From NCBI GenBank assembly GCA_942493095.1, contig OW818675.1:2970001-3002000 (forward strand): 32,000 nucleotides of DNA. Direction: 5' to 3'. Source of the DNA: Candidatus Electronema halotolerans. GTDB lineage: Bacteria; Desulfobacterota; Desulfobulbia; Desulfobulbales; Desulfobulbaceae. Below the pieces are notes generated by a model that searched no databases, was not told where the DNA came from, and saw only the letters and a list, made by a program, of their open reading frames with translations. Shown piece by piece: positions 3,405-26,380 of this stretch (its first letter is position 1; every line of letters starts with the position of its first letter). Made by a program: the position numbers and the translations under genes.

Positions 3405-5528
3405 CTATTCATCGTAGAGGCTGTCTCCGGCCCCGTCCTCCGGTAGGATTTCATCCGCATAGACCTCTGAAGCAGCCGAACCAACAGCCGGAATGCACTG
3501 CTGGCGCACCTTTTGATCAATTTCCAGCAGCATTTCAGGATGCTCCTTCAGGAACGTCTTTGAGTTCTCCCGGCCTTGACCGATGCGCTCGTCATTATAG
3601 GAATACCAAGCCCCACTCTTGTCAACGATCTTCCGATCCACTGCCAAATCAAGGAGATCTCCTGTCCGGGAAATGCCCTCGCCGTAGATGATGTCAAATT
3701 CGGATTCCTTGAAAGGCGGCGCAACCTTATTTTTGACCACCTTGACTCTGGTGCGGTTGCCGATCATCTCCTGCCCGTCCTTGATCTGGCCAATGCGGCG
3801 GATGTCAAGGCGCACCGAGCTGTAGAATTTGAGGGCATTGCCGCCAGTGGTGGTTTCTGGAGAGTTATGCACCACCACGCCGTCAACAAGATAGCAATGA
3901 TTGCCTTCCACTTCCAAGTCGAACCGGTTCATGTCTCTGGTTTCAGGTTTTTCATGGATATCGAGAATAGGCATAGGAACAGCTTTCAAGACACGCTGGG
4001 CAGTGCACTCGAACGGGACAAATTGCCCGCGTAACTTAGGCAATAGTTTGTATTCCATTGACGGATGCACGTAGGGAGCAATCATTGCATGAAATTTCGG
4101 CGTTTCCTGAACACCGAAATTGATCAAACCACGCGCCGTGAGCGTGGCCATGATTCCGCGCTGATGAAACCAGCGCACCAAAGCCTGCTGCTTCTCCAGC
4201 GAAAATCCCGCACAGCAAATTGAGCAGCGATTCTCCCGTTCACTGTCAAAAGTGCCATCATCCATATACCAAATGGCAACTGCAAGCGGAGTGAGATGAT
4301 CAATCAATGCCTGTGAGGGATTCTTACCAGTTTCGGCATAATTTTCTTGGCTCAGTTTGGTCAGTTCATACATTGGGATGGTATCAAAACTGTGACCGCC
4401 TCTCATATTTGTTGTCTCCGAGCCGATCAACCCCTCAAAAAGCGATTGTTTCCAAAGACAGTAAGCATCTTGAGCCTGACCATGTCCAATGCGAAGCGCA
4501 GTGTTGTAATCACTTACCTGTCGCAAACTACCATCTCCAAGAATAGAGCCAAACACGACTTCTTCCTGAACTGGCGAAAGATAGTGTTCAACCATTGTCA
4601 TCAAGCGATCACCAACCTTCAGTTCTCCTGCTGATTTGTATCCGTATTCGGAAAGCAGCAGATGATTAGTTGTGCAACCAAAGGTATGATGTCCATTGCC
4701 GCTGTTAGCATCCACTGTGAATTGGAGAAACAGCTCGGCGGGGCCGTTATTGAACCAGTTGACAATGCGGCGCGGCTCAAAGGCACCCGTTGTCACATCA
4801 TAGGATATGACTTCAAGAGGCATCTTCTGGTTGACAATTTTGCCTATTTTTTCTGTTGTGCCGTCAGCAAGCACCACCCGTGCGTTATAATGAAAGCATC
4901 CGAACATCACCCCGATTTTCATCCTGATCTGATTGATGAAAATCAACACCGTATTGGTTTTCTGAATCACGCTGGTGAACTTGCGCATGGCTTGAGACAT
5001 CAGCCGGGCTTGGAGGCCAACATGCATATCGCCGACATTGCCGTCAATCTCCGCTTTTGGCACTAAAGCTGCCACCGAGTCAATGACAATCACATCCAGC
5101 CCGCCGCTGCGCATGAGAATTTCGCAGATTTCCAGAGCCTGCTCGCCGAAATCCGGCTGTGAGACCAGCAGGTTGTCAACATCCACGCCCAATTTTTCCG
5201 CATAGGTGGTGTCAAGGGCATGTTCCGCGTCGATGAAGGCCGCATTGCCGCCTGCCCGCTGGGCCTCGGCAATGACGTGCAGGGCCAGCGTGGTCTTGCC
5301 GCTTGATTCCGGGCCGTAGATTTCCGTCACCCGCCCGCGAGGCAGGCCGCCCACGCCCAAGGCAAGGTCAATGCCCAAGGTGCCGGTGGAGATGACCGGA
5401 ATGTTGAGCCGCTCATGCTCGCCAAGGCGCATGATTGAGCCTTTGCCGAACTGCCGATGAATCTGGCTGATCGCGCTGTCAACGCTTTTCTGTCGTCCTT
5501 CCGCCTGTTTATCCTGGGTTGCTGCCAT
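3405..5528 (-). CDS. recA: recombinase RecA precursor interrupted by an in-frame intein
   Basis: The N-extein carries the RecA motifs [13 protein letters not shown] (Walker A), [12 protein letters not shown] and [14 protein letters not shown]. The C-extein is [23 protein letters not shown]...[24 protein letters not shown]. 345 unrelated residues lie between them. The track ORF starts at 5552, but AGGAGA precedes the ATG at 5528 (MAATQDKQ...), so 5528 is preferred. The spliced product would be about 362 aa. Confidence 0.9.
3864..4898 (-). mobile_element. RecA intein (345 aa) with LAGLIDADG homing-endonuclease domain
   Basis: - Starts with Cys (TGC at 4898-4896; [13 protein letters not shown], block A).
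- Has a TxxH block B (CTTNHLLL).
- Has two LAGLIDADG-type motifs ([11 protein letters not shown] and [11 protein letters not shown]).
- Ends ...[20 protein letters not shown] (His-Asn; AAC at 3866-3864), followed by Ser+1 (TCT at 3863-3861).
- The sequence is A+T-rich relative to the exteins: the line at 4321 has 24/60 G+C, the extein line at 5281 has 40/60. Confidence 0.85.
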
Positions 5529-5999
5529 TGTCATTCTCCTGTCATGGGTCAAAGCGGCAGCATTCTGCTGCCAGAGCAGATTGTATCAAAGCAACGGGAC
5601 TTGCGGCAAGATAATTTGCCGTGCTTCACCGCAGGCAACGGCATCCTATCGTTGCAGCAGCAAAGCATCTTATCTGAATTGTGGAAAAAATCTGAACGCA
5701 GATGGGAAATTCTTTTATGAGGGCGGCGGCCTGTTCATTGGCGCAGTCGCCTCTTCCGGCAAGGCAGGTCCGCCCAAGGCGATGCCTTGGGCTGATCTAT
5801 CGCAACCTTTTGGATTGGTGAAAAAAAATCTGAAGGAGTTCCGGTGCAAGTGAGCACGGAGCAGCACTCCCTCCAAACTTCGGCCAGCTCCCTGCTCTTC
5901 CCCATCATCCCCATCATCCCCATCATCCACATAGCCTTCCCCGCCGGGCGCACTTACAACTTGAATCCACACTCTTGGCAAGGAACTCTGGCTGCGCTG

Positions 6000-8182: not shown

Positions 8183-8875
8183 TTAAAGCTGTTTGTGATC
8201 GAGCTGTTCGAGCCGCGACAGCCATTCAGCAAAATGAGGGCACTTCTCGCGAATTGCATTCAAGCCGATCAATTCAGCCACCTGCGGCCCTATGACAGAC
8301 TTTGCATATTTGTAATCAGGAAGCTGGGCGATGATGCGTTTGCTGGGAGCTGTTGCCAGGCCGTCATCAATCAGTTCCGGTGAGGCAAAGTCATCCGCAA
8401 TGGCTTGAAGTGCGGCAATTGCCTTTGCATCCTGCGGATAGAAAAGGGCAAATTGTGCAGGTTCAGCAAACAGACACGCCTCATACTCATGCAACTGGAC
8501 ATAAGGGACAAAGCGCGAATCGCCAATGTCATCGGCAAAAGCCTGCTCAAGCAGCGCAACACGTTCCACTGGTGAATTGCGCAGTCGTTCCGCCTCGTTC
8601 CAGCCGGGAAAATCATCAGGAAGGGCATAGAGGTCAATCATGGTGGTGAAAAACACATCATCAGCCTTTTCCTGAGCTGCAAAGCGCAGGATGTCAGCCT
8701 TGACCGGCGCGTACTTGAGTACGCCGCCCCGATGCACTTTGCCCCTTTTTCTTGCATGAGCGATGAGAATCGGCCCCTGCATGAACACTCCGAAAGCAGC
8801 AAGATACGGTTTGAGCACTGTGTCGGCAAAGGTCTGCTCTGTCTGCCCTTCGGCGAAAAGATACAGCCGGGCCAT
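8183..8875 (-). CDS. DUF4276-like protein (predicted TOPRIM-like nuclease partner of the upstream ATPase)
   Basis: 230 aa. The N-terminal strand-Glu motif is MARLYLFAEGQTEQTFADTVLKPYL, followed by an acidic segment FFTTMIDLYALPDDF. This matches my recollection of DUF4276-family proteins, which in annotated genomes sit next to AAA/ABC ATPases. Its start codon shares one nucleotide with the ATPase stop (TGATG at 8877-8873). Confidence 0.65.
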   Translation of the reverse strand: MARLYLFAEGQTEQTFADTVLKPYLAAFGVFMQGPILIAHARKRGKVHRGGVLKYAPVKADILRFAAQEKADDVFFTTMIDLYALPDDFPGWNEAERLRNSPVERVALLEQAFADDIGDSRFVPYVQLHEYEACLFAEPAQFALFYPQDAKAIAALQAIADDFASPELIDDGLATAPSKRIIAQLPDYKYAKSVIGPQVAELIGLNAIREKCPHFAEWLSRLEQLDHKQL

Positions 8876-10002
8876 CAGTGCGGCCCTCCGCCGGTGATAA
8901 TGTTTTTCTCCCAGACTTCGCCAAGGCTGTAATCTTCAAGCCATGCCTCCAGTTCTTTCGGATCAAGCCGTCTGAACTGCGATTCATTGCCTTTCCGATT
9001 CGTCACAATCACATCTTCCGCCTCAAAGCTGTTGAGGAAGGTGCTTGACTGGGTGCTGACAAGCACTTGCGTGTGCTGCGAAGCCCGGCGGAACAAGGAG
9101 GCTATGACATTGAGAGCATAAGGATGCAGGCCGAGTTCAGGCTCGTCAACAATGATCAGATCAGGCAGTTCATTTGCTGGCTGCATGAGCAGCGTGATCA
9201 GACAGATAGCGCGCAGGGTGCCATCTGAAAGCTGGTGGGGGCCGAAGACCTGATCAGACCCTTTTCCCCGCCAATTCAGCATGATCTCCCGTTTGCCCGG
9301 ACCGGTTGGCTCCAGATCAAAGTCATCAAAAAACGGGGCGATGAGACTGACTGTCCTGACAATTGGATGATACGCAGCACCGTCTTTTTCATGGCGCAGT
9401 CTGTAAAGCAGAGCGGCCAAGTTGCCCGCATCAGGCATCAGCCAGTAGTCATCGGCGATATAACAGTATTGGTGAATCCGCGCCGTGGGCGAGGTGTCAT
9501 GAAAATGATAGACCCGGCAACGAGTGAGCAGATGGATTAACCCCCGCACCTCCATTTTATGAAATGAGCTAATGTCCTTTGCTGAGTTTGCCAGTGAGAG
9601 CATCCGTGTTTCACGATGTCCTGCGGCTAATGAAATCTTCTTTGGAGATGGATGCCCAGATGAAAAGAAGCTCAGAATCTCTTCAGCAAAAACAAGTGTA
9701 TCTCCCGTTGCATGAATCAAGCGCATTTCATAGATGTTCTTGCTGCTGTCCACTTCAAATTCCAGCTTGGCCTCCATCTGCGGTGTCATCTTGGGGCCAA
9801 AGTGCAGTAGGGACTGCGCACGCCCGGACATGCCAATGTGCTGCTGAAGCCGCTCCGCCATCATCTCGTTGAGCATCTTGAAAAATGAGACAAAGTTGCT
9901 CTTTCCAGCCCCGTTCGCCCCAATGAGGACATTCAGATTGCGCAGCTCAATGTCCATTTCTTTAATGGACTTGAAGCCTTTAATGATTATCCGTTTCAGC
10001 AT
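8875..10002 (-). CDS. ABC/OLD-type AAA ATPase (AAA_15/AAA_21-like), no fused nuclease domain
   Basis: 375 aa. The N-terminal strand is MLKRIIIKGFKSIKEMDIEL. Walker A GANGAGKSNF, ABC signature-like QLSDGTLRAI and Walker B/D-loop DLIIVDEPELGLHP are present, followed by LVSTQS. This layout is typical of the SMC/OLD-like ATPases of Septu PtuA, PARIS AriA and Gabija GajA type. Confidence 0.8.
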   Translation of the reverse strand: MLKRIIIKGFKSIKEMDIELRNLNVLIGANGAGKSNFVSFFKMLNEMMAERLQQHIGMSGRAQSLLHFGPKMTPQMEAKLEFEVDSSKNIYEMRLIHATGDTLVFAEEILSFFSSGHPSPKKISLAAGHRETRMLSLANSAKDISSFHKMEVRGLIHLLTRCRVYHFHDTSPTARIHQYCYIADDYWLMPDAGNLAALLYRLRHEKDGAAYHPIVRTVSLIAPFFDDFDLEPTGPGKREIMLNWRGKGSDQVFGPHQLSDGTLRAICLITLLMQPANELPDLIIVDEPELGLHPYALNVIASLFRRASQHTQVLVSTQSSTFLNSFEAEDVIVTNRKGNESQFRRLDPKELEAWLEDYSLGEVWEKNIITGGGPH

Positions 10003-12064: not shown

Positions 12065-12430
12065 CTACTGCTGTTCATCGTTGTCCCCGGCCAGCAGGTC
12101 CATGATTTTGTCCACAGACAGTTTGGACAGATCAGTGACCTTGCCGCGAATCTTGAGATAGACAGGTTTTCCGTTCGTCTGAATTGCTGCGAGCAGCTTT
12201 TTGACCCGCTCCATGCGCTTAACTCGTTCGGCAAACTGAAGCGAGCCTTCAATTGTGGCTGCGATCACGACAAGCTGCCAGATTACATCGCCCGGCCCTT
12301 TATGCTCGCCATCCGGCGGCGGTGCTGGGGTGAACTGCGCAGTCTGCTGCAACTCGCTCTGAATGAATTCTGCCACAGCAGCTTCCAGTTCCGGCTTGTC
12401 TTTGGGCAGGCGAAATTCTATTTCAGTCAT
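12065..12430 (-). CDS. small hypothetical protein, EACC1-like (effector-associated constant component) by pattern
   Basis: 121-aa ORF with an ATG start and a weak RBS. The layout is:
- an N-terminal strand (EIEFRLP)
- a helix (ELEAAVAEFIQSEL)
- a Pro-rich linker ending in GxxG (PAPPPDGEHKGPGD)
- a hydrophobic helix (VIWQLVVIAATIEGSL)
- a C-terminal beta-alpha unit (KPVYLKIRGKVTDLSKLSVDKIMDLL)
The family call rests on recollection of EACC1 sequences only. Confidence 0.5.
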   Translation of the reverse strand: MTEIEFRLPKDKPELEAAVAEFIQSELQQTAQFTPAPPPDGEHKGPGDVIWQLVVIAATIEGSLQFAERVKRMERVKKLLAAIQTNGKPVYLKIRGKVTDLSKLSVDKIMDLLAGDNDEQQ

Positions 12431-12474: not shown

Positions 12475-12756
12475 TTAATAAACTTGATCATGCTTGCCTA
12501 TATCAAGCAGAACAATGACTTCAACATCCGCGCTTTGTTCGAGCGAGAACACAATTCGGCAATCATAGCCGCAACTACATGCGCGCAGCCCTTCCAATGT
12601 TCCGCTCAGTTTATGCGTATTCAGTGATGATGAGAAAATATCTTCCTGCATTTGTTCAAGAGTCATTTCAATGCTCTTCAGCAGTTTCTTGTCGCGGCGG
12701 ACAAATTTGCTGAAAGCTCGCTTGAACTTTGGGGTTACAACCAGCTCGCGTCTCAT
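12475..12756 (-). CDS. type II toxin, RelE/ParE (RelE/StbE-YafQ-like) mRNA interferase family
   Basis: 93 aa: ...FKRAFSKFVRRDKKLLKSIEMTLEQMQED...LNTHKLSGTLEGLRACSCGYDCRIVFSLEQ...IVLLDIGKHDQVY. This is the characteristic HKL.G.L.G...C....D.RI.F....I.LL.IG.HD.VY pattern. An ATGA overlap joins it to the upstream small ORF. Confidence 0.8.
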   Translation of the reverse strand: MRRELVVTPKFKRAFSKFVRRDKKLLKSIEMTLEQMQEDIFSSSLNTHKLSGTLEGLRACSCGYDCRIVFSLEQSADVEVIVLLDIGKHDQVY

Positions 12757-12980
12757 TCCTCTTTGTTCATGTATTCCCGAAGTTCTTTGATCGCATCCTG
12801 CGCTGACTGAGGTTTCAGCTCGCCTCGGCGAAACATTGCTAAAGAATCTTTTGCATCTCTGGAAATTTCGTGCCGCACAGCTTCAATGTCCCAGCTATGT
12901 ATCAAATCAGCAAGTATTTTCCGCTGTCTTGGAGAAAAATGTCGGATTGTTTCCACCACCTGTTCAAATGTCATGGACAT
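12753..12980 (-). CDS. putative antitoxin of the RelE/ParE-type toxin
   Basis: The track gives a 129-aa ORF (to 13142) that would overlap the 3' end of the 1329-aa gene. GGAGGA lies 8 nt upstream of the internal ATG at 12980, giving a 75-aa protein MSMTFEQVVETIRHFSPRQRKILADLIHSW...FRRGELKPQSAQDAIKELREYM. Its size, position and 4-nt overlap with the toxin fit an antitoxin. Confidence 0.6.
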   Translation of the reverse strand: MSMTFEQVVETIRHFSPRQRKILADLIHSWDIEAVRHEISRDAKDSLAMFRRGELKPQSAQDAIKELREYMNKEE

Positions 12981-13098
12981 GCCTGCATTCCTCCGGCTGG
13001 CAATCTTTTGTTTTTCTTGGCAGTACAGCCCTTCGACTTCGCTCAGGGCACTCGCGCCGATAAGCACTCTGAATGCGCGCTGCGCTTTCAATCTGCCT

Positions 13099-16000
13099 TC
13101 AGGCATCTGGTTCAACAATACTCCATTCCTCGAATTTCTCAAGGGTTTCTATGGGCTGATTGCCGCTGATGACCTCAGCAAGGGCGGCCAGCAGCGCAGG
13201 GTTGGGATGGCCGTCCTGCTCGGCCCTGCGGACATTGTCTGTCAAGTTCCAGCCAAGGGAGCGCACCCCGTCCAGCAGGAGTTTTTTCAGAGGGCTGAGA
13301 GTCTGGGGCTGGCAGTGGGCGTAGCGGTAGAAGGCCAGTTCTACAGCTAAATCCGGGGCTTCTTTTTCCTGATGCTGCTCTGCCTGTTCCAGCATTTCGA
13401 CAGCCTTGCTGCGATTGCCTTGCACGAAAAGAAGTTTGGCGTAGTTGCCAAGATTGTTTGCATCTTTCGGGTCAGCCTCCACAGCCCGCTCGTACATGGC
13501 TTCCGCTGCTGCGTAATCTTGCTTCTGCTGCCAAAGAAAATTTGCGTAGTTGCCGAGATTGTTCGCATGATTCGGGTCAGCCTCCACAGCCCGCTCGTAC
13601 ATCGCTTCCGCCGCTGCGTAATCTTGCTTCTGAAAATGCAAAAAATAGGCGTATCTGCCGAGATTGCGCGCATGATTCGGGTCAGCCTCCACAGCCCGCT
13701 CGTACATCGCTTCCGCCGCTGCGTAATCTTGCTTCTGAAAATGCAAAAAATAGGCGTAGTTGTCGAGATTGTTCGCATGATTCGGGTCAGCCTCCACAGC
13801 CCGCTTGTACATGGCTTCCGCTGCTGCGTAATCTTGCTTCTGATTCGCCAGAAAGAGAGCGTAGTTGCCGAGAGTGTTCGCATGATTCGGGTCAGCCTCC
13901 ACAGCCCGCTCGTACATCGCTTCCGCCGCTGCGTAATCTTGCTTCTGATTCTTCAGAAAGAGGGCGTAGTTGCCGAGAATGTTCGCATGATTCGGGTCAG
14001 CCTCCACCGCCCGCTCGTACATCGCTTCCGCCGCTGCGTAATCTTGCTTCTGATTCTCCAGAAAGACAGCGTAGTTGCCGAGATTGTTCGCATGATTTGG
14101 GTCAGCTTCTATAGCCCGCTCGTACATGGCTTCCGCTGCTGCGTAATCTTGCTTCTGCTGCCAAAGAAAAGTGGCGTAGTTGCCGAGATTGCGCGCATGA
14201 TTCGGGTCAGCCTCCACCGCCCGCTCGTACATCGCTTCCGCTGCTGCGTAATCTTGCTTCTGATTCTTCAGAAAGAGGGCGTAGTTGCCGAGATAGATAG
14301 CTCTTTCTTTATCTGTTTTTGCCAATTGCAGAGCTGTGTCCAGCCGGTTTTCTTCATCTGCCAGATCAGCGTCCTGCAAAAGTTTCTCTGTGGTTTTGTC
14401 CAGTTCGCCAAAATACAGAAAATATGCCTGCCTGAGCAGTTCTCCTCTTCCCGAAAATTGACTGAACATCAAAAAAAGAATACCTTGAGACTCTTTTTCT
14501 GCTTCTTTTTTCTTTTTATCGCGCTCTTCATCAAAAACTTTATACAGTTCGGTAAACTGAAAGACAGATAACCCCTCTAAAGCATAGCCACTCACCCGTA
14601 ATTTTTCAAAAACATGAAGTGAAAGCGACAGCTCAAGATAATTGATAAACGTATCTGCATCAAAGCCGATTTCCTCCCAATCTGCTGCACAGTTCCTAAT
14701 GCAAAGCCGATGCAAAGCGGCAATGCGCCGCTGGTCTGTCTCGCTGGAGAGCGGCAGTTCTCCTGCATATTCGGCGGAAAAATGATTAGCGCGAATAAAG
14801 TCAATACTCTCCTTGAGAGTCTCTGTTTCCGGCACCGCATACTCTGCCAAAAAATCCTTGAACCAAATCCGCCAGAGCAGCGGCGCGCAAATCTTGGCCA
14901 GAAAATTTCTATCCTCCCGGCCCAGCGGCTCCACCACCTTCCTTGCCAAACCATAGCAGGAAATATGGCCGTCCACATCCCGGCCCTGCCAATGACAGAG
15001 CAGGCCGAAGTTGTCCAACCGTTGCAGGGCTGCTGCCGGATCAGCAATTCCGGCCTTTGGACCAGCTTGCAGGAGCAGCTCTTCCGGCACCGGCACCTCA
15101 AACAGAGTCAGCAGACGCAGGAACTCACGTTCGCTGTTGCGCAGTGCCCGACTGTAAACCTCCAAGGCAATGCGCTGAAAATACTTGTCAACTTCATCCG
15201 CAGGCGATGCTGCTTCCAGCTCGGCTTGCGAGGCGGCAATTCGCTGCAAAGCACTGTCCAACGCGGCCAACTCGCCCTTGAGCAGCGGCGGAAAAAGCAC
15301 GGCCTGCAAACCGGGATTGCCCTGCGCTGCGGCAAAAATCCGCTCCAGATACTGCGCATCCTGAACCTTATCCCGCTCTTGGCTCCCGTCGCGCTGGAGC
15401 AAAGCCAGCCAGTGCTTTTCCTGCTCGGCCACAGTCATGTCCGGCACATTGATTGCCCGCAGCTTGGCGCACAAATCCTCGCCGTGGCGGTTGCGCAGAG
15501 TGAAGCAGCAGCGGGAGGTGAGCAGCAGGCGCGAGTCGGTGTCCGCTTCGGCAAACGCTTCAATCAATGCCTTGAAAACAGGTTGATATTCCCGCTTGAC
15601 CTCGGCCTTGTCTCCTTGCGTAGGCAGCGGCTCCAGAATGTGCTGCTCCAGATCGTCTGCCACCAAAACTATGGGCTGCTGATCAAAGATCCCTTCCAGC
15701 AGGCTCAGGAGAATGCCTTTCAGCCTGCCCGGATCCGCCTGCACCTTGGCTAACAGCCCAGCAAAATCAATCTCCGCATCCCGCGCAGCATCTTGCAGCA
15801 CTTCCAGCAGATCAATGGCCTGATAATGGCGATACAGGACAGCGGCCTTGCAGCGCGGCTCCAGCCGGTCAACAATCCGGGCCGCCAAGCTGGATTTGCC
15901 CGTGCCGCCAATGCCGTAGAGCAGCACGGGCCGCTGCTCGGCAAAGGCTTGCAGAGCCTCCTTGGTCTGCCAGCGTCTGCCGACAAAAGTTTCCCGGCTG

Positions 16001-17088
16001 GCAACCTGCACTTCCCCTTTTTTGTTGTCCAACAGCTCATGGCAGGGCCGCCCGCCGCGCTTGGGACTTTTCGGCTGCCGCCGCGAAATCAGGGGCAGGC
16101 CGCCTGCCGGGCCGAGACAGCAGCGGGCGGAATGCCAGTACGGGCAGCCTTCCCGGAGCATGGCCTGCCGGGCAAGAGCGCAGGCTGCGGGCACAGTTTC
16201 CTCAAATTGCAGGGCCTGATAAAAATGCTGGGCAAAACGGGTCGCGTCCTCGTCTGCTACAGCTCCGTCCCAGCCGACAAGATTGGCAATACCGAGGCGG
16301 GCCAGTTCAACCAGCAGCGAACGATGGTCGCGGTGTTCCGCGCTGTGGCAGGCTGAGAGAAAAAGAGTGCTGAACTGGTCGCGCAGGGGAATGAAATCAT
16401 GGGCCGTCGCAGGCAGGAGGCCGAATTGCCGGTCTTCGAGATGCAGGACAAAACCGCGTTCCGGGTCAAAGCTGCCGTGACAGGAAAGATGGAGGACATC
16501 GCAATGAGCGGTGTCAAGAAGGCGACTGCGCAGCCCGTCCAGACTGCCGGATTCATCGACAATCAGATTGAGCGTGCGACAGGTGCGGGCAGCGGCGAAA
16601 ATGGCCCGCTCTTCCGCTTCATAGCTGAGACCGCTGCTCAGTTCCGGGTCAGCGGCCATGAAAACTAAGGTCAGATCGCGGTATTGCGGCTGGCGCAATG
16701 TGGGTGCTGGTTGACCAGCGCGCCGGAGCACTTCAAAAGGCTGAGGAGCAGCAGCAAGAAATTGGCTGTCTGCGGCGAGAATCTCCCACGGCAGCCGCAG
16801 GAGCAGTTCGTCATCATCTGCCTCAGCAAGAACAATGAGCTGCCGCGTGCCGGGCGCATCCAGCCATTGCCGGAGAAGCTGCGGATTGCCGTTGAAAATT
16901 AACTCAGCCAGCCGTTCACCAAGTGCAAGCAGGGCGGCGTTGTCTCCAGATTGACGCAGGTCGGCGTAGGTTTCGTAGCAGTCCTCTAACCCGCTGCGCA
17001 GTGCATCAGTCAGGTCGATGGACAGCGGCGGCTGGCTGGCAAGGTTGAGGAGCAGATTGTTGTCAGCAAGCTGAAGCGTCAGATTCAT
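13099..17088 (-). CDS. CHAT (caspase-like) protease - STAND P-loop NTPase - TPR repeat protein (NLR/Avs-like tripartite architecture)
   Basis: 1329 aa.
- CHAT-type catalytic dyad contexts: DVLHLSCHGSF (His204, nt 16479-16477) and TLFLSACHSAE (Cys247, nt 16350-16348).
- NTPase: FVGRR...PVLLYGIGGTGKSSLAARIV (Walker A, residues 392-399) and QPIVLVADDLEQ (Walker B).
- A helical region of about 450 aa.
- A C-terminal array of 35-aa TPR-like repeats (DYAAAEAMYERAVEADPNHANNLGNYA.FL..QKQ). Confidence 0.9.
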   Translation of the reverse strand: MNLTLQLADNNLLLNLASQPPLSIDLTDALRSGLEDCYETYADLRQSGDNAALLALGERLAELIFNGNPQLLRQWLDAPGTRQLIVLAEADDDELLLRLPWEILAADSQFLAAAPQPFEVLRRAGQPAPTLRQPQYRDLTLVFMAADPELSSGLSYEAEERAIFAAARTCRTLNLIVDESGSLDGLRSRLLDTAHCDVLHLSCHGSFDPERGFVLHLEDRQFGLLPATAHDFIPLRDQFSTLFLSACHSAEHRDHRSLLVELARLGIANLVGWDGAVADEDATRFAQHFYQALQFEETVPAACALARQAMLREGCPYWHSARCCLGPAGGLPLISRRQPKSPKRGGRPCHELLDNKKGEVQVASRETFVGRRWQTKEALQAFAEQRPVLLYGIGGTGKSSLAARIVDRLEPRCKAAVLYRHYQAIDLLEVLQDAARDAEIDFAGLLAKVQADPGRLKGILLSLLEGIFDQQPIVLVADDLEQHILEPLPTQGDKAEVKREYQPVFKALIEAFAEADTDSRLLLTSRCCFTLRNRHGEDLCAKLRAINVPDMTVAEQEKHWLALLQRDGSQERDKVQDAQYLERIFAAAQGNPGLQAVLFPPLLKGELAALDSALQRIAASQAELEAASPADEVDKYFQRIALEVYSRALRNSEREFLRLLTLFEVPVPEELLLQAGPKAGIADPAAALQRLDNFGLLCHWQGRDVDGHISCYGLARKVVEPLGREDRNFLAKICAPLLWRIWFKDFLAEYAVPETETLKESIDFIRANHFSAEYAGELPLSSETDQRRIAALHRLCIRNCAADWEEIGFDADTFINYLELSLSLHVFEKLRVSGYALEGLSVFQFTELYKVFDEERDKKKKEAEKESQGILFLMFSQFSGRGELLRQAYFLYFGELDKTTEKLLQDADLADEENRLDTALQLAKTDKERAIYLGNYALFLKNQKQDYAAAEAMYERAVEADPNHARNLGNYATFLWQQKQDYAAAEAMYERAIEADPNHANNLGNYAVFLENQKQDYAAAEAMYERAVEADPNHANILGNYALFLKNQKQDYAAAEAMYERAVEADPNHANTLGNYALFLANQKQDYAAAEAMYKRAVEADPNHANNLDNYAYFLHFQKQDYAAAEAMYERAVEADPNHARNLGRYAYFLHFQKQDYAAAEAMYERAVEADPNHANNLGNYANFLWQQKQDYAAAEAMYERAVEADPKDANNLGNYAKLLFVQGNRSKAVEMLEQAEQHQEKEAPDLAVELAFYRYAHCQPQTLSPLKKLLLDGVRSLGWNLTDNVRRAEQDGHPNPALLAALAEVISGNQPIETLEKFEEWSIVEPDA
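13414..14292 (-). repeat. tandem array of 8 complete 105-nt (35-aa TPR-like) repeats plus a partial ninth, inside the 1329-aa CDS
   Basis: Unit boundaries on the minus strand are 14253, 14148, 14043, 13938, 13833, 13728, 13623 and 13518. The plus-strand string gattcgggtcagcctccac recurs exactly at 13569, 13674, 13779, 13884, 13989 and 14199, with a variant at 14094. This is strict 105-nt phasing. Confidence 0.95.
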
Positions 17089-17118: not shown

Positions 17119-17945
17119 TTATCTGCCCGGTCTGTTGAAATTTTCCTCCAGCGCAGCGATTTCCGCCACCGACAAACCGGTTGCCTCGGCCACGAGTTCA
17201 GGGGCAACGCCCTTCCGCAGCAGATTCTTGGCAATCAGCAGCTTTTCCTTCTTTGCCCCCTCTTTAATGCCCTCCTCAAATTTGGTCTGCTGGAGTTCCT
17301 CTTGATGATATTCCTCAATCATTCTGGCCCGCTCCTCCGGCGACAGCTGATCCCGCCGAATGGCCTCGAACAATTTCTGAATCACCGCCTGACCGTACAG
17401 GCTCTCGTCCACCTCTTCATCAAGGGTGTCGTTGCGTTGATGGCCCGCAGCCATTCTCGGTACGGCTCCGGCGTTGCGTCGGAAACATATTTCGGGCAGA
17501 GATAAATCACCTTATGGGAAAGTTCCTGAAGCGGCTGTCCGGTCAAATCACGGGAATCAAAATCAATCACCGCAATGTCCCGCTGGTGACGGTCGCCAGA
17601 GGTCAGAACTACCACGGTATATACGGTCAAGGGCGGGCGATAATTCTTGGAACTCGCCACTTGCTCCAATAACGCCGCGCAGTGGTAATAGAGAAAGCGG
17701 TCGTAGTGATCGTTGGTTCGGGCGTGCTGAATATCAACAATCAGCCGGTGCTCGGTGTCTTCCGCGAAAAGATCAAAGCGGGGCTTGACATAGCCGAGGG
17801 GCGGATCGAATTCCTTTTCTGTCTCCACATGCTCAATGCTGACAGGCCGACCGATCATATCGCGGGCAAAGGCCGTGAAAATCTCCGGGTCGCAGAAAGC
17901 CTTCTTGAAAACCACTCCGTATTTTAGCGAAGCGACTTGTTTCAT
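17119..17945 (-). pseudogene. Rpn-family / PD-(D/E)XK nuclease family transposase gene split by a frameshift
   Basis: ORF 17382-17945 gives the nuclease core (LKYGVVFKKAF...FDLFAEDTEHRLIVDIQHAR...YYHCA...) and ends ...PEPYREWLRAINATTPLMKRW*. ORF 17119-17454, in another frame, continues with NDTLDEEVDESLY...KEGAKKEKLLIAKNLLRKGVAPELVAEATGLSVAEIAALE, the usual C-terminal HTH tail of this family. The frame switch maps to about 17425-17445. Confidence 0.7.
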
Positions 17946-24871: not shown

Positions 24872-26380
24872 TTATGTCAAGCCTTTAGGCGTGAAGTTCA
24901 GTTCAAATTCCAGCTTTGGCTCCCGAATCAGAGCCGGGAAGTCAGGCAAGGGCTCGGCACTGCGCAGGGCCTTGAGCACAGACTGGTCAAACAGGGCATC
25001 GCCGGATTTTTTCTCAATTTTTATATCGTCAATCGCCCCTTTTTTGCTGACGGTCAAGGCAACCACGGTTTTCAGGCCCTTGCTGGCCGCCATCAATTCC
25101 GGCAGCTTCCAGCAGCTGCTGATTTTATCATTCAAGGATGCAGCATAGCGATTCAAGACAGCAGGACTGGAGCCTGCACCCCGGCCATTGCCGCCGGTGC
25201 CAGCCGCTGAAGCTGGGCCGCTGCCGTGAACTGCGGCCACGACCGATTTGACCGCCGCATCTTCCTGGAGAGCACGGGCTAACTGTGCTCTGGCCTGCGC
25301 CGCCGCCTGCTGGGCCTGCTGGGCTTCCTGTTCAATCCGTTTCGCCTCTGCCAAGGCCTCGCGCCGTTTCTGCTCGGCCAACTGTCTGCGAGCCGCCGCC
25401 GCTTTTTCAGCCTTTTCAGCGGCAGCCTTTTTCTCTTCCGCCAATTTAGCCGCTTTAACCTGCGCCTCTTTCTTCTTAGCTTCAGCGATTTTCGCCTGCT
25501 CGACCTGCCGCGCTTTTTCCGCAGCAGCCTTTTTTTCTTCCGCCAATTGAGCCGCCTTGACCTGCGCCTCTTTTTTCTTGGCTTCAGCGATTTTCGCCTG
25601 CTCGACCTGCCGCGCTTTTTCCGCAGCAGCCTTTTTTTCTTCCGCCAATTTGGCTGCTTTAACCTGCACCTCTTTTTTCTTAGCCTCGGCAAGCTGCAGC
25701 TCTTCAGCCTGCCGCGCCGCCGCTTCCTTTTTCTTAGCTTGTTCAGCAACCGCTTCTTTTTGCACCGGAGGCGCAGCTTTCTGCTTCTCCGGGTTGAGCG
25801 AAACAGCCTCCTTGGGCGCAGCCTGCGGTGCTGCCACTGCTTTCTTGACCGCCTGCGCCGGTTTGATGACCTCAATCTTTGCCACTGTCTGCTGCGGGGC
25901 CGGTTTTTCCGGCTCAGGAGCTACCGCTGTCTTGACTTCCACCTTTTCCACGGTCTTTTCAACCACCACCGGCAAAGGCGGCTCCGGCTTGCTCTCCACC
26001 ACAGGCTTGGGCGGCGGGGCAACCGCCTTTTTCACCGCATTATGAGGCCGGATGATCTCCACCGTTTTCGCAACAGGCCGGGCCGGTTCCGGTTCCGGCT
26101 CCGGCGCAGGTTCCGCAACAGGGGGCGGCTCAGTGACTGGCGCGGCCTCTTTGGCTGCCGGGGGGGCAGGGCCGGATTCATTCATGCTGATCAAATCGAC
26201 CGTGACAATGTTTTCCAAATTGAATTTAGGCCTGCTGTCGGTCAGGTTCTGCAACACTGCCGCGCTGCCAAACAGGGCAAGATGGAGGGCCACTGCCAGA
26301 TTCAGCGGCCACTGCCAGCCAGCGCCGTCATCGCGCTGGGCCAGAAAAAGCTCCCATTCATCACGCCGCATTACGCTCAT
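24872..26380 (-). CDS. tolA: TolA-like cell-envelope integrity protein (TonB/TolA C-terminal domain)
   Basis: An N-terminal TM anchor (WPLNLAVALHLALFGSAAVL) is followed by a Pro-rich spacer and a long Lys/Ala/Glu helical domain. The C-terminal TolA/TonB-like domain reads NRYAASLNDKISSCWKLP...VVALTVSKKGAIDDIKIEKKSGDALFDQSVLKALRSAEPLPDFP. An ATGA overlap joins it to tolR. Confidence 0.75.
   Translation of the reverse strand: MSVMRRDEWELFLAQRDDGAGWQWPLNLAVALHLALFGSAAVLQNLTDSRPKFNLENIVTVDLISMNESGPAPPAAKEAAPVTEPPPVAEPAPEPEPEPARPVAKTVEIIRPHNAVKKAVAPPPKPVVESKPEPPLPVVVEKTVEKVEVKTAVAPEPEKPAPQQTVAKIEVIKPAQAVKKAVAAPQAAPKEAVSLNPEKQKAAPPVQKEAVAEQAKKKEAAARQAEELQLAEAKKKEVQVKAAKLAEEKKAAAEKARQVEQAKIAEAKKKEAQVKAAQLAEEKKAAAEKARQVEQAKIAEAKKKEAQVKAAKLAEEKKAAAEKAEKAAAARRQLAEQKRREALAEAKRIEQEAQQAQQAAAQARAQLARALQEDAAVKSVVAAVHGSGPASAAGTGGNGRGAGSSPAVLNRYAASLNDKISSCWKLPELMAASKGLKTVVALTVSKKGAIDDIKIEKKSGDALFDQSVLKALRSAEPLPDFPALIREPKLEFELNFTPKGLT
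25409..25690 (-). repeat. 2.8 copies of a 102-nt (34-aa) tandem repeat in the TolA helical domain
   Basis: AEAKKKE(V/A)QVKAA(K/Q)LAEEKKAAAEKARQVEQAKI occurs twice, followed by a 26-aa partial copy. The plus-strand string cgacctgccgcgcttttt recurs at 25501 and 25603. Confidence 0.9.

What the first reader, a model, noticed from the sequence alone, without database searches (positions are those of the whole stretch)
13414..14292. Near-identical 105-nt TPR repeats with variation confined to a few codons (hypervariable recognition surface?)
Seen in the sequence, eight complete 35-aa units are almost identical at the DNA level, with long exact strings recurring every 105 nt. The units are:
1. DYAAAEAMYERAVEADPNHARNLGNYATFLWQQKQ
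2. ..I......NN....V..EN...
3. ...NI....L..KN
4. ...NT....L..AN
5. ...NN.D..Y..HF
6. ...RN.GR.Y..HF
7. ...NN....N..WQ
8. A degenerate last unit.

- Substitutions cluster at repeat positions 21, 22, 28, 31 and 32. The scaffold positions (DYAAAEAMYERA.EADPNHA, LGNYA, FL, QKQ) are invariant.
- High internal conservation with a few hypervariable positions is the pattern described for fungal NLR repeat domains (WD40/ANK/TPR). There it is attributed to repeat shuffling plus diversifying selection on the ligand-binding face.
- The repeat length is 35 aa rather than the canonical 34.
- Such arrays are also prone to assembly collapse or expansion, so copy number may be wrong or polymorphic.
Basis: seen in the sequence. 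Interest (0 to 1): 0.7.

Follow-up and report, generated by a model that had tools for sequence, protein, structure and literature searches.

The report
Hypervariable TPR sensor of bacterial NLR
The repeats are real: they form the sensor arm of a caspase-like "NLR-type" protein of a cable bacterium, kept near-identical by recombination except at a few residues on the predicted ligand-binding face. This pattern is already known from fungal and some bacterial NLR-like receptors.

Summary
**Observation confirmed.** Window 13414-14253 (minus strand) holds eight in-frame 105-nt/35-aa TPR units, 75-95% identical in DNA, preceded by a half-degenerate unit.

**The gene.** They lie in a 1329-aa ORF (13099-17088, minus strand):
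- caspase-like CHAT protease;
- STAND NTPase (nSTAND1/AAA_16);
- helical linker;
- TPR array;
- conserved ~100-aa C-terminal cap.

**Variation.**
- It is concentrated at unit positions 21, 22, 28, 31 and 32, which are canonical TPR positions 2, 3, 9, 12 and 13 (helix A, concave face).
- The same positions are the most variable in seven independent orthologous arrays.
- Helix-B positions are fixed within each array but differ between species.
- 63 of 66 units are closest to a unit of their own array, so the arrays evolve in concert.
- Two Electrothrix relatives, 91% identical outside the array, differ by two exact whole-unit indels (12 against 10 units).

**Rejected.** A diversity-generating retroelement.

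**Not testable here.** Copy number in this window; several MAG contigs break at this array.

**New here.** A ~120-aa ferredoxin-like partner gene with no known family (12065-12430) follows the receptor gene in all 8 loci examined.

**Verdict.** This is a new member of a known kind; function is inferred, not shown.

The parts
13099..17088 (-). Whole gene: 1329-aa CHAT - STAND NTPase - TPR array - C-terminal cap (bacterial NLR-like protein)
   Evidence: ORF list and translation. Pfam: CHAT 76 bits, AAA_16 39.6 bits, nSTAND1 33.7 bits, many TPR families. Full-length orthologues P0001-P0010.
16144..16923 (-). CHAT (caspase-like) protease domain, aa 56-315. Putative catalytic His in HLSCHG (aa 200-205) and Cys in FLSACHS (aa 243-249).
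   Evidence: Pfam PF12770, E = 4e-21. The His and Cys motifs are conserved in most orthologues that cover the region.
15109..16002 (-). STAND NTPase module, aa 363-660. Walker A is GIGGTGKSSLA (aa 392); Walker B is IVLVADDLEQ.
   Evidence: Pfam AAA_16 and nSTAND1, both above their curated cut-offs. Walker A is conserved in orthologues. Walker B was read from the translation.
14359..15108 (-). Helical linker between the NTPase and the repeats, aa 661-910; no family assigned
   Evidence: Translation. Conserved in orthologues. AlphaFold shows helices in the part modelled (aa 876-910).
14254..14358 (-). Unit 0: half-degenerate TPR unit, aa 911-945. Helix B has diverged; helix A is LGNYALFLKNQKQ. 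Acts as N-terminal cap of the array.
   Evidence: In-register slicing and 44-59% nucleotide identity to the other units. An equivalent degenerate first unit is present in all orthologues.
13414..14253 (-). Eight 105-nt/35-aa TPR units, aa 946-1225. Variable codons are at unit positions 21, 22, 28, 31, 32, with single changes at 10, 13, 24, 25. Unit 8 (13414-13518) is diverging.
   Evidence: TRF; codon table; dN/dS; four-gamete test; AlphaFold pLDDT about 90 with alternating helices; PDB fold matches to CTPR and OGT superhelices, E about 1e-12.
13099..13413 (-). Conserved C-terminal cap, aa 1226-1329 plus stop (motifs ELAFYRYAHC, RSLGWNL, DGHPNP); no Pfam family
   Evidence: 80% identical to E. 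scaldis against 61% for the N-terminal 910 aa. Present after 35-aa arrays in all orthologues and in short stand-alone TPR proteins. Modelled with low confidence without an alignment.
12065..12430 (-). Conserved 121-aa partner gene with a predicted ferredoxin-like fold; no known family
   Evidence: tblastn and blastp: homologues lie directly downstream of the receptor gene in 8 of 8 loci. No Pfam, PADLOC or NCBIfam hit. AlphaFold pLDDT 78.8, beta-alpha-beta-beta-alpha-beta. Only weak PDB matches. Only 29 clusters in 1.84 billion representatives.

Best explanation
**What it is.** The repeats are the sensor domain of a bacterial NLR-like (STAND) protein of a cable bacterium (Candidatus Electrothrix lineage). 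Its parts, in order, are an N-terminal caspase-like CHAT protease, a central nSTAND1/AAA_16 NTPase, a linker, a TPR superhelix of about 8.5 units of 35 residues, and a conserved C-terminal cap.

**How the array evolves (shown).**
- Units recombine with one another by unequal crossing-over or gene conversion.
- This keeps the structural scaffold near-identical within a lineage, synonymous sites included.
- It also changes copy number by whole units.
- Diversity persists at five to seven helix-A residues (canonical TPR positions 2, 3, 9, 12, 13, plus 5 and 6) that line the concave groove.

**How it works (inferred).**
- The groove binds an extended segment of a protein ligand. An invariant Asn at TPR position 6 sits where O-GlcNAc transferase has its asparagine ladder.
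- The variable residues set the specificity.
- Ligand binding releases the NTPase to oligomerise.
- Oligomerisation brings CHAT domains together and activates proteolysis.
- The substrate may be the co-transcribed ~120-aa partner protein or other cell proteins.
- The outcome is growth arrest or death of the affected cell.
- Whether the ligand comes from phage or from non-kin cells is open.
For: **Architecture**
- Pfam finds CHAT, AAA_16 and nSTAND1 above their cut-offs, plus TPR families.
- The catalytic His/Cys motifs and Walker A are conserved in most orthologues that cover those regions.
- The TPR model has pLDDT about 90, and its best fold matches are CTPR and OGT superhelices at E about 1e-12.

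**Concerted evolution**
- Scaffold dS among units is only 0.24 (0.07 in P0007).
- Units 4, 6 and 7 are identical over nt 1-57 yet differ at 10-15 of the remaining 48 nt.
- 25 of 36 site pairs fail the four-gamete test.
- Helix-B positions 3, 4, 7, 8 and 10 are fixed within arrays but differ between species.
- 63 of 66 units have their nearest nucleotide neighbour in their own array.

**Diversity on the binding face**
- The same five positions top the within-array entropy across eight proteins.
- Seven of the top eight belong to the published concave-face set (PMC1261162).
- On a helical wheel, positions 21, 25, 28 and 32 lie within 42 degrees of one axis, opposite the conserved L23, Y26 and L30.
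- Internal control: non-core helix-B positions differ in 4% of unit pairs, the five helix-A positions in 71%.

**Copy-number change**
- Two exact 35-aa indels separate E. scaldis from P0001, which are 91% identical outside the array.
- Copy number is 3-13 units across orthologues.

**Precedent**
- Fungal NLR repeats show the same pattern (PMC4986451).
- It has been noted for bacterial NLRs (bioRxiv 10.1101/2020.01.06.895854).
- TPR sensors of Avs proteins bind phage proteins and trigger oligomerisation (PMC13581612).

**Partner gene**
- It lies downstream in 8 of 8 loci.
- Its start overlaps the receptor's stop by 8 nt in E. scaldis.
- One in-frame fusion of receptor C-terminus and partner exists (P0262).
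Against: - No experiment bears on function.
- PADLOC finds no known defence family for either gene.
- No homologue is found in phage records.
- In Electrothrix the pair sits at a conserved chromosomal position next to trpG. That is not typical of mobile defence islands, although a HEC-01 candidate system and a toxin-antitoxin pair lie within 5 kb in the window.
- Positive selection is not formally shown. The variable sites were chosen after looking at this array. In the other arrays dN/dS at those codons is 0.7-1.35. Nei-Gojobori counts are unreliable under gene conversion.
- The mapping to the concave face rests on alignment to consensus TPR and a helical wheel, not on coordinates.
- The partner's role is a guess. 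Its fold matches are weak (E >= 0.009).
Confidence: 0.7

Rival explanations
1. Relaxed constraint, not diversifying selection. The five positions are simply solvent-exposed and free to drift, while homogenisation and purifying selection keep the rest alike. No ligand-driven diversification is involved.
For: - dN/dS at the variable codons is about 1 in three of four arrays: 0.71, 1.03 and 1.35.
- Their local dS is also raised, at 0.42-0.76. That is expected if these codons simply escape homogenisation.
Against: - Other exposed, substitution-tolerant positions (helix B positions 3, 4, 7, 10) differ freely between species yet are invariant within each array. Exposure alone therefore does not predict within-array diversity.
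- Gene-conversion tracts that make flanking codons identical would also erase drift at the five codons unless variants were retained by selection.
- The positions coincide with the known ligand face.
Confidence: 0.2
2. Assembly artefact. The array, or its copy number of eight, is produced by mis-assembly (collapse or expansion) of a repetitive region.
For: - Orthologous arrays break short-read assemblies. Contigs L001, L010, L011 and L013 end at or inside the array.
- In the E. laxa single-cell MAG the whole array is missing.
- Many array-only hits are fragments on 1-3 kb contigs.
Against: - All eight units are distinct and the reading frame is intact through the array into a conserved cap.
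- The longest exact internal repeat is 90 nt, short enough to be bridged by 150-nt reads or k > 90.
- A complete 5.09-Mb E. scaldis chromosome carries a 12-unit array at the syntenic site.
- The existence of the array is therefore secure; only the exact number of units is uncertain.
Confidence: 0.1
3. Targeted hypermutation by a diversity-generating retroelement (DGR), as described for STAND sensors of multicellular bacteria, creates the variable codons.
For: - DGR-diversified nSTAND1/NACHT/CHAT proteins exist in multicellular bacteria (PMC10907252).
- The commonest codons at several variable positions are AAC and AAT, the codon type favoured in DGR templates.
Against: - No template copy of the unit exists anywhere in the 32-kb window.
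- No reverse transcriptase was found among the ORFs scanned.
- Variable nucleotide columns are not adenine-biased: 8 of 26 have A as the majority base, against 29 of 105 in the unit.
- Many differences fall at non-A bases.
- Known DGR targets in that study are C-type-lectin folds, not TPR arrays.
Confidence: 0.02
4. An ordinary scaffold TPR protein (for example PilF/PilW-like, as some sources name relatives). Its repeats would be alike because of a recent internal duplication and would have no sensing role.
For: - JGI names relatives 'Tfp pilus assembly protein PilF'.
- NCBIfam gives weak PilW and PrsT matches.
Against: - Those NCBIfam scores are far below the curated cut-offs (95.6 against 154 bits; 76 against 312 bits).
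- The protein carries CHAT and STAND NTPase domains.
- Homogenised arrays with lineage-specific scaffolds recur in orthologues of different bacterial lineages (for example Pseudoalteromonas, Thiofilum, uncultured Thiotrichaceae). That requires ongoing homogenisation, not one recent duplication.
Confidence: 0.02

Closest known systems
Fungal NLRs with highly internally conserved WD40/ANK/TPR repeats (HET-E/NWD family; Podospora NB-ARC-TPR genes; Dyrka et al. 2014, PMC4986451)
   Same: - Tripartite architecture: effector, STAND NTPase, repeats.
- Repeats more than 80% identical to one another.
- Whole-unit copy-number polymorphism between close relatives.
- Variation confined to a few positions mapping to the concave face of the TPR helices (one search compared).
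   Different: - The organism is a bacterium.
- The NTPase is nSTAND1/AAA_16-type rather than NACHT or NB-ARC by Pfam.
- The effector is a CHAT protease.
- The unit is a 35-residue near-canonical TPR, not the 42-residue TPR_10/12 type.
- There is no population sample, and no formal site test for selection was run here.
Bacterial TPR-like '42PR' repeats with high internal identity (Marold et al. 2015, cited in bioRxiv 10.1101/2020.01.06.895854)
   Same: - Near-identical tandem helical repeats in bacterial NLR-like proteins.
- The wider CHAT-STAND family of this gene contains them: 44 of 120 homologues have 40/41-aa units, up to 100% identical.
   Different: - Here the period is 35 residues.
- The motif is canonical TPR (LGNYAxFL...DPxxA).
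- A specific C-terminal cap follows the array.
- The Marold paper itself could not be read, so the comparison rests on the citing text and on my own knowledge.
Antiviral STAND NTPases (Avs) and bacterial NACHT proteins
   Same: - Effector - STAND NTPase - TPR-like sensor.
- Avs sensors bind a phage protein through an extensive interface, and binding drives oligomerisation and effector activation (PMC13581612).
   Different: - There is no sequence match to any PADLOC Avs or NLR model.
- The characterised Avs sensors described in PMC13581612 are irregular TPR-like bilobed or enveloping domains; that paper does not describe arrays of near-identical units.
- A defence phenotype has not been tested for this family.
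O-GlcNAc transferase TPR superhelix and designed consensus TPR (CTPR) arrays
   Same: - Best sequence and fold matches.
- Regular superhelix.
- The Asn at TPR position 6 (N25 of the unit) aligns with the Asn of the OGT 'SNLG' motif. That this is the asparagine-ladder position is my own knowledge.
   Different: - This is a structural analogy only.
- OGT and CTPR units are 34 residues.
- There is no evolutionary or functional link to NLR signalling.
Protease-plus-substrate death modules: type III-E Craspase (TPR-CHAT Csx29 cleaving Csx30), caspase-like proteases with bacterial gasdermins, type IV Thoeris caspase-like protease
   Same: A caspase-like or CHAT protease, activated by an upstream sensor and encoded next to a small protein that could be its substrate (papers listed).
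   Different: - The partner here is a ~120-aa ferredoxin-like protein unrelated in sequence to Csx30 or to gasdermins.
- Cleavage is entirely hypothetical.
- Activation would come from a fused STAND-TPR module, not from CRISPR RNA or a TIR-made signal.
DGR-diversified STAND sensors of multicellular bacteria (Doré et al. 2024, PMC10907252)
   Same: - A similar protein class: STAND NTPases (nSTAND1 or NACHT), some with peptidase or TIR effectors. CHAT is found in one non-STAND target (DGR 2).
- The same ecological setting: multicellular or filamentous bacteria.
- The same apparent goal: a rapidly diversifying C-terminal sensor.
   Different: The means of diversification is repeat recombination plus retained point variation, not retro-mutagenesis of a lectin fold. 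DGR hallmarks are absent.

Membership tests
Tetratricopeptide repeat (TPR) | Helix-turn-helix unit of about 34 residues with small or large residues at consensus positions 4, 7, 8, 11, 20, 24, 27, 32 | tested here: met
   - Multiple Pfam TPR families, E = 1e-17 to 6e-31.
- Ungapped alignment to CTPR gives L23=W4, Y26=L7, A27=G8, L30=Y11, A5=A20, Y9=Y24 (consensus F/Y), A12=A27, P17=P32, with one extra residue in the A-B loop.
- AlphaFold shows paired helices at unit positions 20-34 and 2-15.
Tetratricopeptide repeat (TPR) | Units stack into a right-handed superhelix with a concave groove | tested here: met
   The model has pLDDT about 90 across the array. The best PDB matches are 8- and 16-repeat CTPR superhelices and the OGT TPR domain (E = 3e-12 to 1e-11).
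STAND NTPase / NLR-like protein | P-loop NTPase of the STAND class with Walker A and Walker B motifs | tested here: met
   AAA_16 scores 39.6 bits (cut-off 32.6) and nSTAND1 33.7 bits (cut-off 27.1), covering aa 363-660. GIGGTGKSSLA and hhhhDDLEQ are conserved in orthologues.
STAND NTPase / NLR-like protein | Tripartite order: N-terminal effector, central NTPase, C-terminal superstructure-forming repeats | tested here: met
   CHAT aa 56-315, NTPase aa 363-660, TPR aa 911-1225.
STAND NTPase / NLR-like protein | Ligand-induced, nucleotide-dependent oligomerisation | not testable with these tools
   Needs biochemistry.
CHAT / caspase-like (clan CD) protease | CHAT domain with a catalytic His-Cys dyad | tested here: met
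   PF12770 scores 76 bits. H in HLSCHG and C in FLSACHS are conserved in most orthologues that cover the region. The assignment of these residues as catalytic is by analogy, from my own knowledge.
Highly internally conserved (HIC) NLR repeats under concerted evolution (Dyrka 2014 sense) | Units more than about 80-85% identical within one protein | tested here: met
   Mean 88% nucleotide identity for units 1-7. Amino-acid identity is about 86% (30 of 35 positions fixed).
Highly internally conserved (HIC) NLR repeats under concerted evolution (Dyrka 2014 sense) | Repeat-number polymorphism between close relatives | tested here: met
   - E. scaldis against P0001: 12 against 10 units through two exact 35-aa indels, at 91% identity outside the array.
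- This was not tested for the window's own species. Its closest relative, P0002, is cut off before the array.
Highly internally conserved (HIC) NLR repeats under concerted evolution (Dyrka 2014 sense) | Units cluster by lineage rather than by position, with mosaic units | tested here: met
   63 of 66 units have their nearest neighbour within their own array. 25 of 36 site pairs are incompatible in the four-gamete test.
Highly internally conserved (HIC) NLR repeats under concerted evolution (Dyrka 2014 sense) | Positive diversifying selection at positions on the interaction surface | tested here: inconclusive
   - dN/dS is 2.1 at the five codons in the window, but the sites were chosen post hoc.
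- It is 0.71-1.35 in three independent arrays.
- The location on the concave face is supported.
Known anti-phage defence systems (PADLOC-DB v2, including Avs and bNACHT models) | Significant match to a model of a known or candidate defence protein | tested here: not met
   No hits for the receptor or the partner at E <= 0.01. The neighbouring pair 8183-10002 does match HEC-01.
Diversity-generating retroelement target | Nearby reverse transcriptase and a template repeat with adenine-specific mismatches | tested here: not met
   No extra copy of the unit, no A bias, and no RT domain in the ORFs scanned.

The most novel reading that the evidence does not exclude
The gene pair would be an undescribed two-component caspase-like death or immunity module of filamentous bacteria, working as follows.
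- A 35-residue TPR array re-tunes its specificity by unit shuffling. This would be a germ-line analogue of receptor diversification.
- It senses a phage protein or a non-kin determinant.
- The fused CHAT protease then cleaves the conserved ferredoxin-like partner, possibly in its variable loop at about aa 34-50.
- Cleavage releases a toxic or signalling fragment.
- In a cable-bacterium filament this would sacrifice single cells to protect the multicellular conductor.
Probability: 0.25. Interest if true: 0.75.

Novelty: new member of a known kind. Interest (0 to 1): 0.45.

Why it matters
- Near-identical repeats with a few variable ligand-face residues are the hallmark of fast-evolving NLR receptors in fungi. 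For bacteria the pattern has been noted only in passing.
- This locus gives a clean bacterial example with orthologues in several lineages. Each array is separately homogenised, and whole-unit gains and losses are visible between close relatives.
- The rules of NLR sensor diversification could therefore be tested in bacteria. The variable residues are few and precisely predicted, which suits swap experiments.
- It also flags an uncharacterised, narrowly distributed partner protein that always accompanies this caspase-like receptor. Cable bacteria are a lineage in which programmed cell death would have consequences for a multicellular filament.
- Practically, it warns that such arrays break or distort short-read assemblies.

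Tried and rejected
- **DGR hypermutation.** Rejected: no template copy, no adenine bias, no reverse transcriptase in the ORFs scanned.
- **Gasdermin or another known effector beside the protease.** None found. Neighbours are a YafQ-like toxin-antitoxin pair, a split PDDEXK_2 gene, trpG/trpE and cobalamin genes.
- **PADLOC, NCBIfam and Pfam for the partner.** No hits.
- **Fold search of the partner model.** Only generic ferredoxin-like or PII-like matches, E >= 0.009 and TM <= 0.40, with no functional lead.
- **Exact-sequence look-up of the window protein.** Not on record.
- **Closest relative, P0002 (91-92% identical).** Its contig diverges and ends just before the array, so no within-species comparison was possible.
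- **E. laxa single-cell MAG locus.** The gene is fragmented and the array absent, so it is uninformative about copy number.
- **Marold et al. 2015.** Could not be retrieved.
- **Look-up of a distant 41-aa-repeat homologue (P0064).** Intended to test for the partner; failed.
- **Phage records.** No homologue. Plasmids hold only distant CHAT proteins, at most 39% identity.
- **My first regular-expression attempt to extract units.** Mis-specified; replaced by an HMM built from the eight units.
Full report
**1. The observation**

Tandem Repeats Finder reports one array at 13438-14294: period 105, 8.2 copies, 88% matches. It also reports a 315-nt higher-order period. The array lies on the minus strand in a 1329-aa ORF, 13099..17088.

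In the protein, 'DYAAAEAMY' recurs exactly every 35 residues, eight times (aa 946-1225 = window 13414-14253). A half-degenerate unit that keeps only helix A precedes it (aa 911-945 = 14254-14358).

- Units 1-7 are 82-95% identical in DNA. Unit 8 is 75-82% identical to the others.
- Positions 21, 22, 28, 31 and 32 hold 2, 3, 6, 6 and 4 different residues.
- Single changes occur at positions 10, 13, 24 and 25.
- Ten scaffold codons carry synonymous differences only.
- No other copy of the unit exists in the window.

**2. What the gene is**

Pfam finds the following:
- a CHAT caspase-like protease domain (aa 56-315, 76 bits);
- a STAND-type NTPase (AAA_16 and nSTAND1, aa 363-660, both above their curated cut-offs);
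- many TPR families over the repeats.

The putative catalytic His (HLSCHG) and Cys (FLSACHS) and the Walker A motif are conserved in most orthologues that cover those regions. The last ~100 residues form a conserved cap with no family. This is the effector-NTPase-repeat architecture of NLR-like proteins. PADLOC has no model that matches it.

**3. Organism and locus**

- The best genomic relative of the receptor is Candidatus Electrothrix laxa (64% identity).
- The small downstream gene has 72-93% identical homologues in E. laxa, E. scaldis, E. aarhusensis and Desulfobulbus sp. US2.
- In the complete E. scaldis chromosome the order is rpsT - trpE - trpG - CHAT/STAND/TPR (1481 aa) - partner.
- The window has the same rpsT, trpE, trpG and receptor order.

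The window therefore most likely comes from a cable bacterium, and the gene is at a conserved chromosomal site. Full-length orthologues also occur in Pseudoalteromonas, Thiofilum and an uncultured Thiotrichaceae bacterium; partial ones (contigs cut before the array) occur in Cocleimonas and Vibrio cholerae.

**4. Where the variation sits**

An HMM built from the eight units recovered in-register units from the orthologues. Within-array entropy, averaged over eight proteins, is highest at unit positions 28, 22, 21, 31 and 32, then 19, 25 and 24.

Ungapped HMMER alignment to consensus TPR gives unit position 20 = TPR position 1, with one extra residue in the A-B loop. The variable positions are therefore TPR 9, 3, 2, 12, 13, then 34, 6, 5.

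- Magliery & Regan identify 2, 5, 9, 12, 13, 33 and 34 as the concave-face, most variable positions of TPRs in general. They identify 2, 5, 6, 9, 12 and 13 as the residues that contact peptide ligands in HOP (PMC1261162).
- Seven of my top eight fall in that set (P = 9e-6).
- The AlphaFold model (pLDDT about 90 over the array) puts helix A at unit positions 20-34 and helix B at 2-15.
- On a helical wheel, positions 21, 25, 28 and 32 lie within 42 degrees of one axis, and conserved L23, Y26 and L30 lie opposite.
- The best fold matches are CTPR superhelices and the OGT TPR domain (E about 1e-12).
- The nearly invariant N25 aligns with the Asn of the OGT 'SNLG' motif. From my own knowledge, this is the asparagine-ladder position that binds extended peptides.

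**5. Concerted evolution**

- Scaffold codons show dS = 0.24 and dN = 0.014 among units. In P0007 the scaffold dS is only 0.07. The similarity is therefore recent at the DNA level and not merely protein-level constraint.
- Units 4, 6 and 7 are identical over the first 57 nt but differ at 10-15 of the remaining 48 nt.
- 25 of 36 informative site pairs fail the four-gamete test.
- Helix-B positions 3, 4, 7, 8 and 10 never vary within an array but differ between species. Consensus units include DYAAAEAMYE, DYEQAETFYQ, DYPGAEALYE, DYAQAEIFYL and DYVEAEAMYI.
- 63 of 66 units from eight arrays have their nearest nucleotide neighbour in their own array.

**6. Diversification**

- At the five codons dN = 0.89 in the window (dN/dS = 2.1 against local dS, 3.7 against scaffold dS), but the sites were chosen post hoc.
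- Using those same sites in independent arrays, dN is 0.54-0.99 against 0.04-0.21 in the scaffold, and local dN/dS is 0.71-1.35.
- Positive selection is therefore suggested but not proven.
- An internal control argues against simple relaxed constraint. Non-core helix-B positions differ in 4% of unit pairs, the five helix-A positions in 71%. Yet the helix-B positions tolerate change between species.

**7. Relatives differ in copy number**

- Orthologues carry 3 to 13 full units.
- E. scaldis and metagenomic P0001 are 91% identical over the 926 residues before the array. Their arrays differ by two exact 35-residue indels (12 against 10 units).
- Six of their 11 substitutions fall at the five variable positions (P = 0.002).

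**8. Assembly caveat**

- Contigs L001, L010, L011 and L013 end at or in the array.
- The E. laxa single-cell MAG lacks the array.
- Many array-only database hits are fragments.
- In the window all units are distinct, and the longest exact internal repeat is 90 nt. The array is real, but eight units cannot be verified without reads.

**9. The partner gene**

- A ~120-aa gene follows the receptor gene in all eight loci where downstream sequence exists. In the window it is 12065..12430, separated from the receptor by an inserted YafQ-like toxin-antitoxin pair.
- In E. scaldis its start overlaps the receptor's stop by 8 nt.
- It has no Pfam, PADLOC or NCBIfam family.
- Its predicted fold is ferredoxin-like (pLDDT 78.8), with only weak PDB matches.
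- Only 29 clusters are found among 1.84 billion representatives.
- One record fuses it in frame to the receptor's C-terminus (P0262).
- Its role as substrate, adaptor or regulator is unknown.

**10. Wider picture and novelty**

- In the CHAT-STAND family, 50 of 120 homologues have at least 60% adjacent-unit identity. Their periods are 41 (38 proteins), 40 (6) and 35 (6).
- The 35-residue unit plus cap also occurs in short stand-alone proteins. Of 112 hits, 107 have period 35, and 39 of those are highly homogenised.
- The literature already describes this regime in fungal NLRs (PMC4986451).
- I found no paper on this 35-residue class, its cap or its partner.
- DGR-based diversification of similar sensors is known (PMC10907252), but its hallmarks are absent here.

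**11. Verdict**

The finding is a new member of a known kind. The evolutionary mechanism (homogenisation plus retained variation on the ligand face, with unit gain and loss) is shown by sequence comparison. The signalling mechanism (ligand binding, oligomerisation, CHAT proteolysis, possible cleavage of the partner) is inferred by analogy with characterised STAND proteins (PMC13581612) and is untested.

Noticed in passing
window 12065-12430 (-): A conserved 121-aa gene of no known family, with a predicted ferredoxin-like fold. It follows the CHAT-STAND-TPR gene in 8 of 8 loci across Electrothrix, Pseudoalteromonas, Thiofilum and Thiotrichaceae. One record (P0262) fuses it in frame to the receptor's C-terminus.
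   Followed up: yes
window 3405-5552 (-): The recA gene (715 aa) is interrupted by an intein with a LAGLIDADG homing-endonuclease domain (Pfam RecA, LAGLIDADG_2, Intein_splicing).
   Followed up: no
window 8183-10002 (-): An AAA_21/AAA_15 ATPase (8875-10002) plus a DUF4276 protein (8183-8875). They match the PADLOC candidate defence system HEC-01 (HEC-01A 2e-140, HEC-01B 1e-75), about 3 kb from the partner gene.
   Followed up: partly
window 12475-13142 (-): A YafQ/RelE-like toxin (12475-12756) with a small upstream antitoxin-like ORF, inserted between the receptor gene and its partner. In E. scaldis the two genes overlap directly, and in E. laxa the same cassette lies after the partner.
   Followed up: partly
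window 17119-17945 (-): A PDDEXK_2/Rpn-like nuclease gene is split into two overlapping ORFs (187 and 111 aa). The E. laxa homologue is an intact 270-aa ORF (L002 12349-13161), so this is a probable frameshift or pseudogene in the window.
   Followed up: partly
window 25413-25684, inside ORF 24872-26380 (-): A second tandem repeat (period 102 nt, 2.7 copies, 91%). It lies in a TolA-like protein (TonB_2 C-terminal domain) within a tolQ-tolR-tolA-tolB-cpoB cluster.
   Followed up: no
L001 10600-10731; L010 1-459; L011 1-632; L013 1-598; L002 10960-11260: Orthologous genes in short-read MAGs are cut at or just before the TPR array. In the E. laxa single-cell MAG the gene is fragmented and the whole array is missing.
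   Followed up: partly
proteins P0150, P0155, P0178, P0193: The same 35-residue homogenised TPR unit plus the same C-terminal cap occurs in short proteins without CHAT or NTPase domains. P0155 has an N-terminus with a SIR2-like GAGxS motif. This suggests a portable sensor module.
   Followed up: partly
proteins P0041, P0060, P0078, P0028, P0064 and others: More distant CHAT-STAND homologues carry 40/41-residue repeats that are 94-100% identical between adjacent units. They include proteins from Rhodomicrobium, Streptomyces, Kitasatospora and Rhodovulum.
   Followed up: no
window 13414-14253, higher-order structure: Synonymous markers at codons 4, 7 and 12 give the haplotype A-C-T in units 2, 5 and 8. 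This matches the 315-nt (three-unit) period seen by TRF and suggests that part of the array grew by duplication of a three-unit block.
   Followed up: partly
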